NCBI GenBank assembly: GCA_030295235.1
Contig: AP026144.1
Location: 1 to 64,000, forward strand
Reading direction: 5' to 3'
DNA: 64,000 bases
From: Fistulifera solaris
Lineage: Eukaryota
This document shows, piece by piece, positions 10,022 to 63,335 of the stretch. Numbering within the stretch: the first letter of the stretch is position 1; each line of letters starts with the position of its first letter. The position numbers were made by a program, and so were the translations under genes. The notes below the pieces were generated by a model that worked only from the letters and a program-made list of their open reading frames with translations, did not search any database and had not been told where the DNA came from.

Positions 10022-12602
10022 ATGCTCGGCTGGATCAATGATTGCGCTGAAAAGCTGATTATTCACAAGTTTGGATTAGAAGCGTGGCATACTGTCAAGT
10101 CCAAGGCGAAGTGCTACGTCGAGGATGGAGGATTCTTGAAACTCGAAAGCTATTCGGATCAGAGCACTATCGACCTCGTTGTTGCTGCAAGTGAAGTCTC
10201 CGGACTCACCGTTGATCAAGTCCTTGAAGCGTTGGGTGAGTTCTGGGCACCATATGTTGCTGGTGAAGGCTACGAAAATCTCCTTTGGTGTCAAGGATCG
10301 ACATTTAAAGACTGGTTGACGAACATTAACGCCATACATTCCCACCTACAAACGACATTTCCCAACAAGATGACGATGCCGGAGTTTTGGGTGGAGATGG
10401 ACGATCACGACGAATCAATTATCTTGTACTATTTGTCTTCAAGAGGAAATCTTCTCGCTCCCATCGCCGAGGGCATTGTTAAATCTGTGGCCAAGACTGA
10501 ATTCGAACTTAATATTATCTTCGAAAAACTGACAACTCAAGGAGTAGATGGTGCAAAGGTCACCAGGTACGTAATAAGTTGCCGAAACGAAGAACAGCAT
10601 CAACTTTAGCTCGATCTTACAACGCTTTACTTCCGTCCCGCACAACAGTTGGAGGATCACCACCGAGGATCCGCTCGACATGTACAAGCTTACGCAAAAG
10701 AAAAGTTGCTACGGAGAAATTCATCCCGTCTCTGAAATCAAATGTCCTTTTACCGGTGTCGTGTATACCACTCCTTCCGAATTCAATGTTGAAAGCCACG
10801 AGGAAAGTCGTCTCAAGACAGCCAATCTCGTGCCCCGTCACTGGAGTGACGTTTTCCGAGGAAGCCCGCGGCCCGATGCAGAGCTGTGAAATTAATACAT
10901 CTGCGGACTTGATGGCTGAAAAAGACTTCATGACCCACATTGAAGAGGAAGAAGACGAGCCCAAATTTTCGCGACGAACCTCTTTCAGTGACCAATCATT
11001 AAGCACGTCCGTCACAAAAAGCTATTCTTCAACAACTTCTGACCCGAATGGCGGATTGTCGGCAAGGGTTACCAAGAAATTGTTTCCCTACCACATTACG
11101 TTGGGCCCTGATTTGTGCATTCTTCAAGTCGGCAAAGCGCTTCCCAAACTGTTGAATGTGTACGAAGACGACCTTCTTGGGATGCCTGCATCGCAAATAT
11201 TTGAAATCCAAAAGCCTGCGGCAGCCGTCTGGAGTTCTAGTTGGCTTCGGAAACTGGAAGATCAGTCTTTGACAGTCAAGCCGACCATGTCAGCTGCTCA
11301 AAAGCTCGTATTCAAAGGCAGCGCAGTTCGTCTCAACGATCGAAAAGCAGCAGACTGGATCGTTATCCTGTGCCCAGATGCCAATAACTTGGACGAGCTG
11401 CGCGACATGGAGTTGACACTGAGCGATCTTCCCGTACACGGATCGCACCGCGATGCTGTGTTCCTCCGAGAGCACCTCAGTAGCCAAATGAACGATGCGT
11501 TGAAAATGGAAAAGCTTAGCAAGTCCTTGCAAAGGAAAAAAAGCTGCTCGAGTCGCTTCTTCCCGAGCACGCTGCCGAAGGCTTGCGAATGGGTCGCAGT
11601 GTAGAGCCGCGTCTTCACAACAATGTCACCGTCTTCTTCTCAGACATCGTGGGCTTTACAAATATTTGCGACCAGATCTTTCCGTGGGAGGTCATCAACA
11701 TGCTCAATCAGCTCTACTGCATCATGGATTGCTTAGCCATGAAGTTCAATTTATTCAAAGTGGAAACGATCGGAGACGCCTACGTCTGCTGCAGTGGCCT
11801 TCCGGATAGTGACGAAAACCATGCCCGCAACGTCGCCAATTTCGCTCTTGCCGTCAGTCATTGTTGCGGGCTAGTTAAGTCTCCTATGGACGGAAAGCCT
11901 ATTCAACTGCGTATCGGGATTCATTCCGGATCTTGCGCAAGTGGTGTAGTTGGTGTGACCAACCCACGTTATTGTGTTTTCGGTGACACTATCAACACTA
12001 CTGCTCGTCATGAAAGCACTGGCGAAGCAGGTAAGGTACACTGTTCTGAGGTGACTCGAAAGGAATTGGAAAGAAAAGCCCCCGAGCTGTTTGCTTTTGA
12101 AGACCGCGGTTTGATTGAAATGAAGGGCAAGGGTCAGCAAAACACCCACTGGTTGTACGCTTCCGAAATGAACGAGTTTGCCAACCAAACTGGCTTGAAA
12201 GCTCTGGTAGATCTCGTGAAGAAGGACTTAACAAAGATGGAATCGTTCAAAGCCGAAGATACGGTTCGCAGCGACACCCAGGACTTTCTTCATGGAAGTG
12301 AGTCTCCCCTTTATAGTCCCAGGAAGCACATCGTTCGACGAGTGTCAGCTACTCTCACTGAAACGTCGACGAACAGTGAGTCCTCCGATGGGAACGACGA
12401 TATGCATTCTCTCCGGATTGCTCCCGACTTGCTCGAAAAGAGTCCTTCAACGAAACACATTCATAGCGTTTCATTAGTTCACGACCTTTCCGAGAGGGAG
12501 GTCATTTCTCTCTTGTCTCCCCTCTCTCGAGCTGACGAGAAAGAACTTTTATTTCATGTGAAGTCTCGCTACCGAATCGTGGTTATAATAAACTTATCAT
12601 AA
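10022..12602 (+). CDS. Soluble guanylyl cyclase-like protein: H-NOX + HNOBA/PAS + class III cyclase
   Basis: MLGWIN start, proximal His (NAIHSHL), YxSxR (YLSSR), LFPYHI, FSDIVGFT, KVETIGDAY, PRYCVFGDTINT; intron 10567-10648; frameshifts near 10810-10830 and 11532. Confidence 0.92.
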
Positions 12603-57517: not shown

Positions 57518-58483
57518 ATGAATCTCGTGGCTTGCAATATCTACATAACAGCAGGGAGACTGCCGCAACACATCCCAGTGCTTTTGAATTTATTGCAACA
57601 GGCACAAACGCAATGTCGTGACGATCCCAACGTTGTCGTCGTCGTACATGCCTTTGCAGATCGAATCTACAATCGTACATCCTTTCATTTTGCTGCCAAA
57701 TCAGCTAACAGTCTAGTTTCAGTTACATCCGCATTGGCAAAAACAGCCTTGTAGGAGTTTCAACATCAGCAGCAGCGAACAATGAAAGAAACACCCACAA
57801 CAAATTCCAAGTACCGGTACTTTCATCCGCATGTAGGTGTGGTAGATCACATCTCTGTCATGTCTCTTGCCGAATCCCAAGACATGAACACAAACATTAC
57901 GTGTCGTGCTGCTACCGAAATGACGCAATCGGCTCACGAGATTGGAAAACGATTGGAAGACATGGGTCAGATCGTTCATTACTACGGTCACGCTCATCCC
58001 GACAATCATTCTCTAGCGCAAGTTCGTCGAGAAAAGACATCGTTTTTTCATCATGAAAAGAATGATACGAGTAACTACTCGCAATCGAAGGAAACGCAGT
58101 CGGGAATATGCCTCGTCGGCGTCCCGAAACAGTTTGTCGAGAACTACAACGTGCGTGTACTATGCTCTGGCAAATCCCTCGTCAGCCGGACTTTGACACA
58201 ACGTTTGAGAGAATGTGATGGAGGCATTGTTGGCGTAGAAGCCTTGACGCTGCCTTATGGTGACGGTTGCTGGGAGGTAGCGATGAATCTTTTGCTTCCA
58301 AATTTGGTTCCTTCTATTCAACAAATTGTAAGTGAATGGAAGGAGGGTACATTGCTGAAAGAATATCAGGTTGGAACCACTCTCGAGCAATGTCAAAGAT
58401 GTTTGCAGATGGAGGACCGAGAAAGTCACGATGCATTCGTGATGAAGCAGCTTGAAATGTATTTGGAGTCCTCCGATTGCTGA
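57518..58483 (+). CDS. Glutamate formiminotransferase-like (FTCD N-terminal) protein with an in-frame TAG at 57752-57754
   Basis: LVACNIYI, HAFADRIYNRTSF, HPHVGVVDHI, YNV, GVEAL.L, EVAMNL; both ORFs are in the same frame. Confidence 0.85.
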
Positions 58484-59042
58484 GGCGAGAGCCAGATATA
58501 CCAGTAAGTACATCGCAATTCACTTTTTCGACACAGAAATACCCCAAGGAGGATAATAAGTAGTCGTCTGGATTGAAACCAACTCTCATAACTAACGGCG
58601 AACGACATTACCACTCGATGTGACAAAGGCTAGTATCTTGACTCAATCTTTCTAGGTACATCGTAAAATAGTGCATTATTTGCAATAAACTGAGAGGGAA
58701 TAGTTTTTGTGGAAGCTGTCGCTTTTTCATGAAGTTTTTGGGAAGTAAGCGCAATCTTTTGCATTTATCAAACTGTACAAGCTACAACCCAAAATCTAGA
58801 GACGGGAGGGAATGTTATACGACTGCCGATATAGTGCTGAGTCATGAAGCACACGTCACTCCCTTCTTTCCTCTTTCGTCGTCGTTTTTCGCGTGCGGAT
58901 CTTTTTCGAGCGTAAAAGCTTCGAATCATCTCGAAGCAAAGTTTATGTTCGTATTCTCATTGCTGCTCGTTGTGAATCTTTTGTGCTTGAAACATTTTCT
59001 TTTGTTAGCCCTTTTAAGCGCAGAAACAGCACGCAAATAACC

Positions 59043-60665
59043 ATGTCGTCACAGGAGGATGCTGAAAAGCTACTGAAAGAAACGGCTTATTTCAAAGAGG
59101 CACCCAAAGCCTTCGTTCAAGAGCTTGCTCGACATATGAAATGCCTCAACGTCAAAGACGGCCACAATTTCTTTGAAGAAGGAGAGGAAATTCACAGTGT
59201 TCTTATTTTAGAAGAGGGGATGCTTGTTCGCACGAAAATGTCCGTCGATGAGAGCGACGTCGCCGAATTACGCAGCAGTCTGCGTGAAATGCCTTTGGAG
59301 CACAGCGAATCAGCAAGTAGTGACGATTCGTCTGTGTTAATTGACATGATCAGCGGACGCGCGCAAGTCACGGGATTGCTGCACAATTTCAAAGCGGGGG
59401 CTGTAGCGTACGCGACAGTATCTGCGAAAGGATCTGTCAAAGCTTGGTTGATCGAGGGCGAAAAGTTTCGCGAGGCTATCACAAAAGAACCCACATATGC
59501 CTTGGAGATGATGTCGGCCTTATCTCGAGAACTTCGGGTCGGTACCAAGTCACTACAGGCGTTGGTGCGTCACAGCAAGGCTGGTCATCGAGAAGGAAAC
59601 GCGACATCAGAGCAAAAAGTGTGCAAAGTCTTATGCTATGATGCAACGAGCTGGACGATTGAGGGATTTCAACCGGCGATTGAAGAGTTCAACAAGCAAC
59701 ACGAACAAGAAGGTATCTCTATCGAGATGGAGTTTACGACGGAACGGTTGTCCGAGCATAGTGCAATATTTGCCGCTGGATACAGTGCCGTATGCCTGTT
59801 TGTCAACGATACGGCGAACAGCAATGTCATTCAAACATTGAGTGTCTTGGGAGTTCGCATGATTGCCATGCGTTGTGCCGGCTTTGATCGTGTCGATACA
59901 AAAGCAGCTCGTGCGTTTGGATTGACTGTCGCTCGTGTCCCGGCGTATTCTCCATATGCCGTGGCTGAAATGGGAATTGCCTTGTTGATGAGTGTAAATC
60001 GCAAGATTCATCGAGCGAACAACCGCGTTAGGATGGCGAACTTCACGTTGGACGCCGGTTTGATGGGTGTGGATATACACGGCAAGACAGTGGGTGTCAT
60101 GGGAACGGGCAAGATCGGAGCCATTTTGTGCAGTATTCTACGGGGATTTGGTGCCAATGTCATCTGTTACGACGTGCACGAAAATCCAGAAGTTATTGAA
60201 AAAGGTGCGATCTACGTCAGTAAGGAAGAGATACTGAGCCAGTCGGATATCCTTTTTTTGATGATGCCATTATTGCCCCCAACGAAACACACCATCACTT
60301 TTAATACGCTGAAGCTGCTCAAGAAGGGTATGATTTTGATTAATACGAGTCGCGGTGGCCTAATTGATACCAAGGCACTACTGAAGGGACTGCAGGACGG
60401 TACAATTGCGGGAGCCGGACTGGATGTGTACGAGAACGAGCAAGAGTATTTCTTTCAGGACTGGTCAGCTAAAACAGTTACAGACGCCGACCTTGTTGCC
60501 TTACTCGGAAATAACAAGGTTGTATTAACCGCTCATCAAGCATTCTTCACACAAGAAGCCGTGGATAAGATTGTGAGTGATACGATTCAGAATCTGACGG
60601 ATTATTACCATTCCAACAAGTCGGGTCTCCGTCATCCAAATAATTGTATTCCCGTTCATCATTAG
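59043..60665 (+). CDS. ldhA: D-lactate dehydrogenase (LdhA-type) with N-terminal cyclic-nucleotide-binding-fold domain
   Basis: VCLFVND, RCAGFDRVD, RVPAYSPYAVAE, GVMGTGKIG, INTSRGGLID, DVYENE, HQAFFT; N-terminal FEEGE...ILEEG...ATVSA...LIEGEKFRE. Confidence 0.92.
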   Translation: MSSQEDAEKLLKETAYFKEAPKAFVQELARHMKCLNVKDGHNFFEEGEEIHSVLILEEGMLVRTKMSVDESDVAELRSSLREMPLEHSESASSDDSSVLIDMISGRAQVTGLLHNFKAGAVAYATVSAKGSVKAWLIEGEKFREAITKEPTYALEMMSALSRELRVGTKSLQALVRHSKAGHREGNATSEQKVCKVLCYDATSWTIEGFQPAIEEFNKQHEQEGISIEMEFTTERLSEHSAIFAAGYSAVCLFVNDTANSNVIQTLSVLGVRMIAMRCAGFDRVDTKAARAFGLTVARVPAYSPYAVAEMGIALLMSVNRKIHRANNRVRMANFTLDAGLMGVDIHGKTVGVMGTGKIGAILCSILRGFGANVICYDVHENPEVIEKGAIYVSKEEILSQSDILFLMMPLLPPTKHTITFNTLKLLKKGMILINTSRGGLIDTKALLKGLQDGTIAGAGLDVYENEQEYFFQDWSAKTVTDADLVALLGNNKVVLTAHQAFFTQEAVDKIVSDTIQNLTDYYHSNKSGLRHPNNCIPVHH

Positions 60666-60760: not shown

Positions 60761-63335
60761 TTAATGCGATGTTGTTATCGATAGCTCTTCATCCTTTCCC
60801 GGAGAGATCGAAGTCGATTTGACGTTCTCAGGACCAAACATCGACAGAACAACAGGCAACAAAATCAGCCCATGGGTAGCACCCAACAGAACCAATCCTA
60901 AGAATGCGACAAACACGGTACCAAAAATTTCGCTTGTGCTGAACGCTAGGGGTAAGATGCCCAGAAAAGTCGACGCGGCCCCGATGAGAATTGAAGCACC
61001 CATGGTGCGAAGAGTCTCGGTTACCTTCTGGCTGCGGCTACCTTTTGCCTCGTAATAGCGAACAAGTACATGGACAATATAATCAACCGTCAGTCCGATT
61101 GACATCACCAACGTTACGTAGCTGACAGGATTGACAGCTTTCCCGAACCACTGCAGCCAGCCGAGAAGTTCCACATAAAGGACACACACCAGGGGCAAGA
61201 TGAAAACGGCAGCAGACCAATGCGGGATAAGCAATAGCGCAATGCCTGTTACAGCAACAACACCGGTGATGGTTGTAAGAATGAGCTCGTTCACAGAGAC
61301 AGAGTAAAACTCCCAAATGTCATACACGCCATCGTATGTGAAGAAAAACCAATCGTCACTTCCTTGATTGATGGGCTGTGAGCTGGTTACGTCGCGCTGA
61401 CTCTCCAAAGCATCAATCTGCTCCTTAACGTTTTCGATATCAACATTATCCATGTTAATCGAGCATCGAGATTCGCGAATATTTCCCGTCTCATCCAACA
61501 CAATATGATCTGCATACAATTCCCGGTACACTGGATCTTGGAGAAACAATTCCAATTGCTGGGAAAACGTCAGCCCTGTGACACTATCTTCAGCCGCAAA
61601 AAACTTGAAATCGCGTAGCCAAAAGAAGTCGGGGCCCGTTTCGATAGCGTCGATCGATACAAGCTCTTCGATGTATCTCTCCATTTGGTCTTGAATCACA
61701 GGATCTGACTGGTCAACACCGCGGAAGTACACCGCAGGACTCACAGACGAGCGAACGGAGCGCTCATTATAAGCATTGAAGAAATCGGCGACGTATGAAT
61801 CATTCGGAACAACTTCTGTGAACTTAAACTCCTGCTTCAGCTTAGAAGCACTGAATGCGCTGGCAATAGCCAATGCGGTAAAACCAACAATCACGACGCC
61901 TTTCACTACTGGCTTCATGAGGCACTCAGCATAGCGGCCCATCAGCTCCGTCGCAAAATCCTCTAAATCGTTATGTTCGCCGTCCGACTCGCATTGATCA
62001 TCGCGGGCTTTAAAGCATACTAGGCAATCGCGACGTCGATCCGCAATCCTTTTCTCATCCACCACAATGCACCCAACAAAGAAAGTGAGCTGGAACATGA
62101 GAACGATGAAGATGGTGAAACAAGCGTAGAGGCAGAGCCAGAAAACGGCCGGCACGCTCGAAAGGCAACCCAAGCCAAAGGCCAGCGTGGAAGTGAGTGT
62201 TGTCAGGACTATGCTCATACCAATGTCATCCATGGTGTCGAGAATACGATCAACGGGCGTCTTTGACTTGTCGGATCGGCTGAAGGCACCGCTAATGATA
62301 AATGCATCATCAAGGCCAATGCCAAAAAATGATAAAGGGCAATATCTGGGTCATCGATGTGAAAGGAACTTCGCACACAAACATAAATCCGAATCCACAA
62401 AGTAAACTGAGCATGACAGAGACGACGGCACCGAATCCGACAAGACTCTGAGAGTAGACCCAGTTGCGCTGCGCGAAAGCTACGCAACAAAAGATTGACA
62501 TAATAATGAAGATAGCAGGAACCAACGGAATGTCTGCTACAATAGCTCGACCGAATTCATCATCAAAAGAACGCTCCGCTTGAACTTCCAAACGTAGAGC
62601 AGTAGACGAACCCCCTTCCCACTCATCGCTGAGTTCAAGGATGACGTCTAATGCATCTTCCTCAAAGTCTTCAGCCTCTGAAGTATCTGGAAGGTCGATT
62701 TGAATCGTAAATGACTCTGCCGAGACTAGTTGCCCCGAAGCATCGCGAACTGGTTTCCCCATAATGTCATTTTCTGAAACGGGGCGTCCGTCCGAGTATA
62801 CTAATGCCGACAAGGCCGCCACGGCGTCCGCATCCGAAGAAACTTGTTCTTGAAAGACAATTGCGGACTCGTTAAAGAAATCAACAATCCCATGCACTTC
62901 ACACTTCTTCGAACCGATGGTGTCTGCGCAGACCTCATTGTATTTCGGAAGCGACCGAACAGCATCCAAGGCCTGAAAGACACGGTCGATTTGGTCTTGA
63001 CCGATGACATTGCCTCCGCGTTGGTGAAAGAACATGACAAAAGGACGAGGTTCTCGAGGAAATCCCGAAACATTGTCGATCCACTTTGAGTGTTGAATGG
63101 GCTTGGAGCTTTGGGGCGTCCAAAGCGCTTCACCATCAACTTCTACTTCAAAGTTGGTGAAGAGACCCAGCACGAAGACACCCAACGAGAGAACAATTAC
63201 TGCCACAATGGTGCGAATAGGATTCCGTGCACTAGCCCCACTGACGACGCGAAGCGAGGTCATTATCGGCCGCCGTGCGTTCTTGACGACGTCTTCCCAT
63301 TTCTGAGCCAAACTTTTGTCTGCTTTTACATTCAT
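60761..63335 (-). CDS. Patched/NPC1-like sterol-sensing RND transporter; one frameshift at A-run 62324-62329
   Basis: PFIIFGIGLDDAFII after repair, SIVLTTLT, MSIGLTVDYIVH, GATHGLILLPVVLS. Confidence 0.92.

What the first reader, a model, noticed from the sequence alone, without database searches (positions are those of the whole stretch)
59043..60665. Fermentative D-LDH fused to a cyclic-nucleotide-binding fold; possible NO-cGMP-fermentation link
Seen: an uninterrupted ORF with about 170 aa of CNB/CAP-type pattern before a complete LdhA. The phosphate-binding cassette is degenerate (TGLLHNFKAGAVAYATV lacks the usual Glu and Arg) and there is an acidic insertion. Established: LdhA normally has no regulatory domain. 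Inference: allosteric control of dark/anoxic lactate fermentation by cNMP or another ligand. The H-NOX cyclase 47 kb away suggests a gas-sensing-to-fermentation circuit, but co-location alone is weak evidence.
Basis: partly seen in the sequence, partly recalled or inferred. Interest (0 to 1): 0.7.

Follow-up and report, generated by a model that had tools for sequence, protein, structure and literature searches.

The report
Diatom lactate dehydrogenase with sensor domain
Diatoms carry a lactate-making enzyme fused to a cyclic-nucleotide-type sensor domain that has lost its cAMP/cGMP-binding residues and probably responds to something else, and the model diatom's gene for it appears to have been annotated and studied as two separate halves.

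Summary
Confirmed: window 59043-60665 is one intronless 540-aa ORF. A CNB-fold domain (AlphaFold pLDDT 90; Z 16.7 to a PKA regulatory subunit) precedes an NAD-dependent D-lactate dehydrogenase. The fusion occurs in pennate and centric diatoms, and the CNB half is under purifying selection as strong as the enzyme's (dN/dS 0.046).

Across 199 non-redundant homologs the cNMP-binding Glu and Arg are never present. Arg63, Asp101, His114 and Tyr/Phe123 replace them, so direct cAMP/cGMP control, and with it the NO-cGMP circuit, is unsupported. The H-NOX cyclase is real but lies 46 kb away. One bacterial metagenome fusion keeps a canonical cassette, suggesting a cNMP-gated ancestor whose pocket was rebuilt.

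Best reading: an allosteric module sensing a small anionic metabolite (about 45%); rival: ligand-free or phospho-controlled (about 35%).

In Phaeodactylum tricornutum the annotated LDHA (313 aa) and the adjacent 189-aa model are exact halves of one 539-aa protein. A published overexpression primer starts at residue 227, so that construct likely lacked the CNB domain. Reported induction follows low nitrogen, high CO2 and lactate; anoxia data are equivocal. This scan earlier noted a similar degenerate CNB on an L-LDH in another genome (unchecked).

The parts
59043..60665 (+). Whole gene: CNB-homology domain fused to NAD-dependent D-lactate dehydrogenase, 540 aa, 59.4 kDa, no intron
59043..59582 (+). 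CNB-homology domain (residues 1-180): two N-terminal helices, beta-barrel, hinge helix, long C-helix
   Evidence: dN/dS 0.046 between homeologs
59229..59231 (+). Arg63, near-invariant (192 of 196), at the position of the purine-packing Val of canonical CNB domains
   Evidence: conservation; register; role of the Val is recalled knowledge
59238..59336 (+). Variable beta4-beta5 insertion (residues 66-98), partly helical, low model confidence; enriched family-wide in S[LIMV][RK] and RRxS motifs
59373..59417 (+). Rebuilt phosphate-binding cassette G111-L-L-H114...A122-Y123-A-T125 (no Glu, no Arg)
59490..59582 (+). Long C-helix (150-180) with conserved R165 (180 of 188) and K169 (180 of 187), leading into the linker
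59583..59618 (+). Flexible, non-conserved linker (181-192; pLDDT under 50 at 182-188)
59619..60614 (+). D-LDH (LdhA-type): RCAGF 277-281, GxGxxG 354-359, D377 (NAD-type), catalytic R437, E464, H498, with Y302 and F501
   Evidence: residue roles from established D-2-hydroxyacid dehydrogenase knowledge
60618..60641 (+). C-terminal tail KSGLRHPN; a GxxxPN-like tail occurs in 133 of 169 full diatom-type fusions, and a related strict motif marks the 3 fused but none of the 158 unfused non-diatom LDH frames
   Evidence: motif drawn after seeing the sequences
10022..12602 (+).

Best explanation
A NAD-dependent D-lactate dehydrogenase (pyruvate + NADH to D-lactate + NAD+), probably cytosolic, that acts as a reductant and carbon overflow valve. 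It carries a CNB-homology domain that no longer binds cAMP/cGMP. SHOWN: the fusion, the fold, intact catalytic motifs, loss of the cassette Glu/Arg in the whole family, a new conserved polar set (R63, D101, H114, T125, R165, K169) and strong purifying selection. INFERRED: the rebuilt pocket (cassette Gly111 backbone, His114, Arg63) binds a small anionic central metabolite, such as a 2-oxo/2-hydroxy acid (pyruvate, lactate, 2-oxoglutarate). Binding would move the long C-helix and, through the linker and perhaps the fusion-associated C-terminal tail, tune LDH activity to carbon:nitrogen or redox imbalance. The ancestor was probably a cNMP-gated LDH like the bacterial fusion L146.
For: Fold. Glu 0 of 199 and Arg 0 of 199 at the cassette positions; R63 192/196, D101 187/198, H114 196/199, T125 194/199, R165 180/188, K169 180/187. 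Conservation of new polar pocket residues from centric to pennate diatoms, and of R63/H114/Y123/T125/R165/K169 in a distant AT-rich relative L104, is what a functional site looks like. dN/dS 0.046 for the CNB versus 0.050 and 0.037 for the LDH halves. CRP-family CNB domains are known to have switched to other ligands: 2-OG in NtcA, chlorophenolacetate in CprK (PMC12937710, passages). The P. tricornutum ortholog rises 5.6x (low N) and 4.5x (high CO2) while lactate and 2-OG are among the top rising metabolites (PMC9153171, passages and supplement rows). The bacterial fusion has a canonical G-E...R-S-A-T cassette and a Shine-Dalgarno site.
Against: R63 and D101 lie on neighbouring strands and may simply pair and fill the cavity, as salt bridges do in non-allosteric CRP/FNR members (PMC12937710). 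NtcA binds 2-OG with the cassette Arg and a C-helix Arg; the first is absent here, and the second maps (by recalled CRP numbering) to a variable E163. K65 is K/R in ordinary CNB domains too, so it adds nothing. One transcriptome study found minimal ldhA expression under low N (PMC12789813). An AU test on the LDH domains rejects one clade for all fused enzymes (p 0.019, quick tree, 28 rows), against a simple single origin from L146-like genes.
Confidence: 0.45

Rival explanations
1. Ligand-free CNB-homology domain: R63-D101 and Tyr/Phe123 fill the old pocket, as in KCNH CNBHDs (recalled) or non-allosteric CRP/FNR proteins. The domain acts as an assembly or autoinhibition module, perhaps switched by phosphorylation of the beta4-beta5 flap, which could give indirect cAMP/PKA control.
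For: Opposite charges R63/D101 on adjacent strands and aromatic 123 in 197 of 199. Precedent for salt-bridge-filled cavities (PMC12937710). Flap motifs: RRxS in 19 of 149 long inserts versus 2.6 shuffled; R[RK]x[ST] in 15 of 71 after 60% de-replication versus 3.5; S[LIMV][RK] in 32 of 71 versus 9.8.
Against: D101 is not kept in L104 although R63 and H114 are. The flap is short or absent in 47 of 196 homologs, including the Thalassiosirales type. The window's own flap has RSSLR, not RRxS. Shuffles do not remove relatedness fully. No phosphosite data were seen.
Confidence: 0.35
2. One reading: the domain binds cGMP or cAMP in a non-canonical way and links an H-NOX cyclase to anoxic lactate fermentation.
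For: CNB fold, with G111 (185/199) and the A-T of the cassette kept. A bacterial fusion with a canonical cassette exists. H-NOX cyclases flank the gene at 46 kb and about 95 kb. With 6 H-NOX loci in 51.7 Mb, one within 50 kb has a chance near 1% (arithmetic), before allowing for the partner being picked after the fact.
Against: Both nucleotide-anchoring residues are lost family-wide, and the Ser/Thr position holds Tyr/Phe. 24 ORFs of 200 aa or more lie between the genes, and there are 72 cyclase-domain matches in the genome. The P. tricornutum neighbour named in print is a GPCR. The anoxia proteome results show no LDH change.
Confidence: 0.12
3. The enzyme prefers another 2-oxo acid (for example 2-oxobutyrate, hydroxypyruvate, 2-oxoglutarate) or works mainly as a lactate oxidiser, so 'fermentative' is the wrong label.
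For: Identity to characterised D-LDHs is only 38-42%, and no NCBIfam cut-off is reached. The top PDB sequence hit, Fusobacterium D-LDH, prefers 2-ketobutyrate (PMC4230899 abstract). The transcript is induced 28x by added lactate.
Against: The top 10 sequence matches and the top structure matches are D-LDH/pyruvate reductases, well above other 2-hydroxyacid dehydrogenases. Lactate accumulates when the protein rises.
Confidence: 0.08

Closest known systems
LdhA-type NAD-dependent D-lactate dehydrogenases (E. coli, Pseudomonas, Fusobacterium, Salmonella; Chlamydomonas pyruvate reductase 4ZGS; Dictyostelium 7WN9)
   Same: Two-domain fold, 38-42% identity, all catalytic and NAD-binding motifs. The Gram-negative enzymes are allosteric tetramers (PMC4230899, abstract).
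   Different: These solved chains are 329-386 aa and match only the LDH part. None of 80 GTDB LDH loci examined had a CNB domain upstream.
CNB domains of CRP/FNR regulators, PKA and PKG
   Same: Same fold; best Foldseek matches are apo GlxR, DNR and apo M. tuberculosis CRP, with the long C-helix aligned (TMq 0.67-0.70). Z 16-17 to PKA/PKG domains.
   Different: Cassette Glu and Arg lost; Val replaced by Arg63, Ala by His114, Ser/Thr by Tyr/Phe123; insertion in the beta4-beta5 hairpin; no DNA-binding or kinase partner.
NtcA (2-oxoglutarate-binding CRP family member) and non-allosteric CRP/FNR members (SdrP, HB099, DdrI)
   Same: CNB fold used for a non-nucleotide ligand, or for none (PMC12937710, passages).
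   Different: NtcA keeps the cassette Arg (Arg88), which is absent here; those proteins are transcription factors.
CNB-enzyme fusions (mycobacterial acetyltransferase Pat, PycTIR, trypanosome PGKL)
   Same: A CNB domain fused to an effector or enzyme domain; Pat and PycTIR appear among profile hits, PGKL in PMC7729029 (passages).
   Different: Different effectors. PGKL is reported as apparently catalytically dead, while this LDH keeps its active-site motifs.
Bacterial CNB-D-LDH fusion (locus L146; ESM Atlas cluster of 74 members, commonest taxon Myxococcota)
   Same: Same domain order and similar length (485-489 aa); related C-terminal tail.
   Different: Canonical G-E...R-S-A-T cassette, no insertion. 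LDH-domain trees do not unite it with the diatom group. That L146 belongs to the Atlas cluster was not checked. I found no paper on it.
Phaeodactylum tricornutum LDHA (B7S4E4 / PHATRDRAFT_bd1469)
   Same: Ortholog: the 313-aa model equals residues 227-539 of a 539-aa fusion protein, and the neighbouring model XP_002176438.1 equals residues 1-189.
   Different: Studied in print as a plain LDH; the passages read do not mention a CNB domain on it.

Membership tests
[quoted passage not shown] | Catalytic and NAD-binding domains (PF00389, PF02826) above cut-off | tested here: met
   82 and 161 bits versus cut-offs near 25; 67 of 67 family members
[quoted passage not shown] | Arg-Glu-His catalytic triad, GxGxxG, acidic residue for NAD | tested here: met
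   R437, E464, H498, G354/G356/G359 invariant in 67 sequences, D377 in 90% or more
[quoted passage not shown] | Curated D-LDH model above its cut-off | tested here: inconclusive
   Best NCBIfam models are D-LDH but under their cut-offs (211 versus 356 bits); the closest PDB entries are all D-LDH
[quoted passage not shown] | Pyruvate as preferred substrate | not testable with these tools
   needs an enzyme assay
CNB-fold (cyclic nucleotide-binding homology) domain | Helix - beta-barrel - hinge - C-helix fold | tested here: met
   pLDDT 89.8; Foldseek E 3e-11; Z 16.7, rmsd 1.9 A, 118 aligned
Canonical cAMP/cGMP-binding CNB domain | Cassette Glu after Gly (ribose 2'-OH) | tested here: not met
   L112; Glu in 0 of 199
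Canonical cAMP/cGMP-binding CNB domain | Cassette Arg (cyclic phosphate) | tested here: not met
   A122; Arg in 0 of 199 at this column, in 11 of 199 one residue earlier; register
cGMP-selective CNB domain (PKG, CNG type) | Thr/Ser after the cassette Arg | tested here: not met
   Tyr/Phe in 197 of 199
Canonical cAMP/cGMP-binding CNB domain | Measured cNMP binding | not testable with these tools
   needs ITC or affinity capture
NtcA-type 2-oxoglutarate sensor | Cassette Arg (Arg88) binding the 5-carboxylate | tested here: not met
   PMC12937710 passage against A122; it may work like NtcA but is not a member
NtcA-type 2-oxoglutarate sensor | C-helix Arg129 and trans Glu134 with a CRP-type dimer | tested here: inconclusive
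   conserved R165/K169 lie off the expected register (alignment; CRP numbering recalled); oligomer state unknown
NO-sGC-cGMP pathway target | Conserved linkage or co-occurrence with H-NOX cyclases | tested here: inconclusive
   linked only on the two homeologous contigs of this genome; other diatom contigs were too short

The most novel reading that the evidence does not exclude
Diatoms, and some other eukaryotes, took a bacterial cNMP-gated D-LDH and rebuilt its CNB pocket (Arg63, His114) into a 2-oxo-acid sensor. This would make LDH a direct carbon:nitrogen receptor: a 2-oxoglutarate or pyruvate sensor, analogous to NtcA but wired to an enzyme, that opens a lactate overflow valve under nitrogen limitation and so feeds the reported lactylation response. 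A possibly mitochondrion-targeted paralog would extend it to a second compartment.
Probability: 0.2. Interest if true: 0.85.

Novelty: new variant of a known kind. Interest (0 to 1): 0.6.

Why it matters
Both halves are familiar, and automatic annotation already tags some homologs as CNB-domain proteins. But I found no paper on the fusion (open-licence library only).

How diatoms sense carbon:nitrogen imbalance is described as unresolved (PMC9153171, passages). A conserved, repurposed sensor domain on the enzyme thought to make the most strongly rising metabolite is a concrete, assayable candidate.

It also bears on published work. The P. tricornutum gene model is split. The overexpression primer starts at residue 227, omitting the CNB domain and the first 37 residues after it, including the first LDH strand and helix. 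Larger-than-expected Western bands, put down to multimers, fit a 59.5 rather than 34 kDa chain. The 'pkA' gene said to lie between GPCR and ldhA is probably the CNB half, which would remove the genomic basis of the proposed GPCR-PKA-LDHA chain.

A canonical bacterial version offers a natural before/after pair for studying how a CNB domain changes ligand.

Tried and rejected
Homodimer prediction of residues 1-181: no verdict (0.31 against a mark of 0.32, controls not folded), so no evidence either way.

RNA search: no holder on record as RNA was listed. In four runs guessed to be RNA, one 872-nt contig with 55 differences (a homeolog or paralog) bridges 59366-60237, but no piece spans the gene; not used as evidence.

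Prokaryotic fusions: not found in the 80 GTDB loci kept of 188 relatives, in 5 genomes behind those loci, or in 301 genomes sampled from the phylum of G003 (43 matches in 41 genomes, none reaching the CNB part). A metagenome scan confirmed against a stand-alone CNB found nothing. No Myxococcota genome could be reached. Two long bacterial frames (L058, L088) had no CNB, only high-GC open frame.

'Acidic insertion' as a family trait: rejected. K65 as a novel pocket residue: rejected, ordinary CNBs have K/R there. Upstream GTG start at 58893: rejected, the upstream frame is not conserved in the homeolog and homologs start near 59043. Synteny with two short diatom-type contigs: only short scattered tblastx pieces, none credible.

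Single origin of all fused LDH domains: the first tree separates 43 diatom-type rows from 18 bacterial rows (SH-aLRT 100, unrooted; the intended outgroup rows dropped out). The second groups L104, L118 and L146 (92) but leaves the diatoms apart. The AU test rejects one clade.

Literature searches without a relevant hit; one search returned only general H-NOX papers. Earlier-findings look-ups by sequence, place and one word set were empty. Figures 3, 10 and S15 of PMC12512433 and the supplements of the bioRxiv preprints could not be seen; they bear on the band size, the identity of 'pkA' and the anoxia response.
Full report
OBSERVATION. Window 59043-60665 (+) reads as one 540-aa frame with no intron. 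Residues about 193-525 are an LdhA-type D-lactate dehydrogenase: PF02826 E 3e-47 and PF00389 E 4e-23. The best solved relatives are the D-LDHs of Fusobacterium, Salmonella, Pseudomonas and E. coli and the Chlamydomonas pyruvate reductase, and R437, E464, H498 and GxGxxG are invariant in a 67-sequence alignment. Residues 1-180 score below the Pfam cut-off alone (17.2 of 27.5 bits), but 51 of 67 homologs match PF00027 at E<=0.01. A 20-sequence profile retrieves 56 PDB sequences led by PKG, PKA and CRP. The AlphaFold model (pLDDT 89.8) matches CNB domains: Foldseek E 3e-11 to apo GlxR, Z 16.7 and rmsd 1.9 A over 118 residues to yeast PKA-R. The full-length model has pTM 0.66 and a disordered linker, so the domain arrangement is not resolved. 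The closest named protein is a Fistulifera solaris D-LDH at 95-96%; the window is diatom DNA.

DISTRIBUTION. The fusion is not a one-off. 78 of the 141 proteins then held had both domains nearly full length. Named carriers include Fistulifera, Nitzschia, Amphora, Seminavis, Cylindrotheca, Ditylum, Thalassiosira, Cyclostephanos, Skeletonema and a record whose name is cut at 'Minuto'. Several are complete transcript models of 504-540 aa, and UniRef labels some 'Cyclic nucleotide-binding domain-containing protein'. An N-terminal fragment is labelled Vaucheria litorea (one transcriptome record, contamination not excluded). Three were diatom-type with introns and two were AT-rich (L104, L118) with the same kind of degenerate cassette. 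The sixth, L146, is 64% GC with a Shine-Dalgarno site and a canonical G-E...R-S-A-T cassette (PF00027 74 bits). The ESM Atlas lists two CNB + 2-hydroxyacid dehydrogenase clusters, 111 members (commonest Bacillariophyta) and 74 members (commonest Myxococcota). This is a lead that I could not check genome by genome.

THE POCKET. 312 of 341 held proteins matched a profile of the domain. I dropped 3 unrelated hits and collapsed 309 to 199 at 90% identity; the set is biased toward relatives of the query. The register was fixed with PKA/PKG alignments and with L104, which has no insertion. The cassette Glu position is L/F/M (Glu 0 of 199), the Arg position A/S (Arg 0 of 199; 11 have Arg one residue earlier), and the Ser/Thr position Tyr/Phe (197 of 199). 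New conserved residues are R63 (192/196, where canonical domains have Val), D101 (187/198), H114 (196/199), R165 (180/188) and K169 (180/187); T125 (194/199) is kept. The roles of these positions in canonical domains are recalled knowledge. Between homeologs the domain has dN/dS 0.046 (7 non-synonymous, 34 synonymous differences) against 0.050 and 0.037 for the LDH halves, so it is not decaying. The beta4-beta5 insertion is 5-64 residues with median net charge near zero, so 'acidic' is particular to this copy. Across the family it is enriched in S[LIMV][RK] (70 of 149 versus 20.7 shuffled) and RRxS (19 versus 2.6).

MECHANISM. Shown: an enzyme with intact catalytic motifs and a selected, rebuilt CNB-homology domain. 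Inferred (0.45): the pocket binds a small anionic metabolite through Arg63, His114 and the cassette backbone, and the long C-helix relays this to the LDH. CRP-family domains have switched ligand before: NtcA binds 2-oxoglutarate and CprK chlorophenolacetate (PMC12937710, passages). The same paper gives the main rival (0.35), cavities filled with salt bridges and no ligand, which R63-D101 could be; flap phosphorylation could then be the switch. NtcA itself uses the cassette Arg that is missing here, so this is not an NtcA member. Gram-negative D-LDHs are allosteric tetramers even without an extra domain (PMC4230899, abstract).

PHYSIOLOGY. In P. tricornutum, LDHA protein rises 5.6x in low N and 4.5x in high CO2; lactate is the top rising metabolite and 2-oxoglutarate second or third (PMC9153171, passages and supplement rows). 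The transcript rises 43x in low N and 28x with lactate (PMC12512433, tables in text). A third study saw minimal expression in low N and a rise in high CO2 (PMC12789813, passages). In T. pseudonana dark anoxia, the results report no detectable LDH change while the discussion lists it as upregulated (bioRxiv 10.64898/2026.07.20.739533, passages). A novel T. pseudonana D-LDH rises 5x in phosphate deficiency (PMC10077189, passage; identity with this gene not checked). An overflow valve for nutrient imbalance fits these data better than an anoxia-specific role.

H-NOX LINK. The cyclase gene is real: HNOB at 10028-10516, with HSHL and YLSSR where the heme His and YxSxR motif are expected (motif recalled), then HNOBA and cyclase. 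It ends 46 kb upstream, with 24 ORFs of 200 aa or more between; a second lies near C22:154-155 kb. Six H-NOX loci in 51.7 Mb make a neighbour within 50 kb about a 1% event, but the partner was chosen after the fact and the genome has 72 cyclase-domain matches. Above all, the domain lacks the residues needed to read cGMP. I give direct cNMP control 0.12.

SPLIT GENE IN THE MODEL DIATOM. The cluster of the 539-aa fusion P0037 contains B7S4E4 (XP_002176437.1, 313 aa) and XP_002176438.1 (189 aa, partial). They are exact substrings, residues 227-539 and 1-189, with 37 in-frame residues between them. The T. pseudonana model EED94263.1 is likewise a partial LDH-only piece in the cluster of a 507-aa fusion. 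The overexpression primer in PMC12512433 (supplement Table S1 row) encodes MEFTTE, which starts at residue 227. The paper notes larger-than-expected Western bands (size not stated, figure not seen); the predicted masses are 59.5 versus 34.2 kDa. B7S4E5, a 'fragment' with the next accession, rises 4.6x and 4.1x alongside B7S4E4. The paper places a 'pkA' between ldhA (XM_002176401.1) and a GPCR (XM_002176403.1). That B7S4E5 and 'pkA' are the CNB half is inferred from accession order, not shown.

ORIGIN. A putative diatom D-LDH was called a bacterial transfer (bioRxiv 10.1101/2020.01.24.918219, passage; identity with this gene not checked). A C-terminal G[KRL]xGxx[HL][PT]N tail marks exactly the 3 fused among 161 complete non-diatom LDH frames (motif drawn after seeing them), and a looser form marks 133 of 169 diatom-type fusions. 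L104, L118 and L146 group at SH-aLRT 92 with the tail trimmed. Against this, forcing them with the diatom group is rejected (p-AU 0.019; quick tree, 28 rows, long branches). A cNMP-gated bacterial ancestor is plausible, not shown.

OWN GENOME. There are four copies: this one, its homeolog on C21, and a tandem paralog 7.9 kb downstream on each contig. On C22 the two are identical in DNA over residues 191-380 but very different over 1-96, which points to gene conversion or an assembly artefact. The paralog has an 80-aa Arg/Ser-rich extension open in both homeologs (dN/dS 0.69), resembling a mitochondrial presequence (inference). The C21 paralog has a one-base loss in an A run, absent from the named F. 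solaris protein.

NOVELTY. Five searches of the open-licence library found no paper on the fusion. CNB-enzyme fusions are known (Pat and PycTIR; PGKL, PMC7729029, passages), so this is a new variant of a known kind. If right, CNB domains joined lactate dehydrogenases of two unrelated families. PMC3660698 (passages) added only that sediment diatoms respire nitrate in dark anoxia. Interest 0.6.

Noticed in passing
L009:6649-8514 (G000:C22, about 66.6-68.5 kb) and L012:2455-4316 (C21): Tandem paralog of the fusion with an 80-aa Arg/Ser-rich N-terminal extension kept open in both homeologs (dN/dS 0.69), like a mitochondrial presequence; on C22 it shares an identical DNA tract with the window copy (gene conversion or assembly artefact).
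   Followed up: partly
L012:3840-3850 (G000:C21, about 71.8 kb): One-base loss in an A run frameshifts the C21 paralog near residue 387; the named F. solaris protein is intact there, so probably an assembly error.
   Followed up: partly
window 10022-12602: H-NOX + HNOBA + cyclase gene with the proximal His and a YxSxR motif, resembling soluble guanylate cyclase; the HNOBA and cyclase frames overlap with a frame change near 11520-11604 (intron or frameshift). Six H-NOX loci in the genome.
   Followed up: partly
L146:901-2355: Bacterial (64% GC, Shine-Dalgarno) CNB-D-LDH fusion with a canonical cAMP/cGMP cassette; candidate cNMP-gated lactate dehydrogenase; no paper found.
   Followed up: partly
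L104:156-1625 and L118:3-1500: AT-rich metagenome contigs, probably non-diatom eukaryotes, with the same kind of degenerate cassette and no insertion; L118 is frameshifted between the domains' frames.
   Followed up: partly
proteins P0183, P0185, P0259: Reference gene models of P. tricornutum (split in two) and T. pseudonana (partial) omit or separate the CNB domain.
   Followed up: yes
window 60761-63335 (-): Patched/sterol-sensing (NPC1-like) gene lying between the tandem LDH copies, in two frames here but one 854-aa frame in the C21 homeolog (intron or frameshift). Its 3' part is far more deeply covered than the LDH in runs X2-X4, though contig depth cannot rank genes.
   Followed up: no
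window 57782-58483 (+): Formiminotransferase N-terminal-like protein (PF07837) just upstream; contigs in runs X3 and X4 end in poly(A) at 58618.
   Followed up: no
protein P0017 (GAX11663.1, 1008 aa): Public model that merges the LDH paralog with the downstream 4-hydroxybenzoate polyprenyltransferase gene; probably an annotation fusion.
   Followed up: no
L169:2526-4358 (-): Membrane protein with two CNB domains, apparently transporter-like, on a contig with an unfused bacterial LDH about 5.6 kb away.
   Followed up: no
G000 C3, C4, C25, C26: Clusters of tandem class III cyclase domains (72 matches genome-wide), several with identical scores.
   Followed up: no
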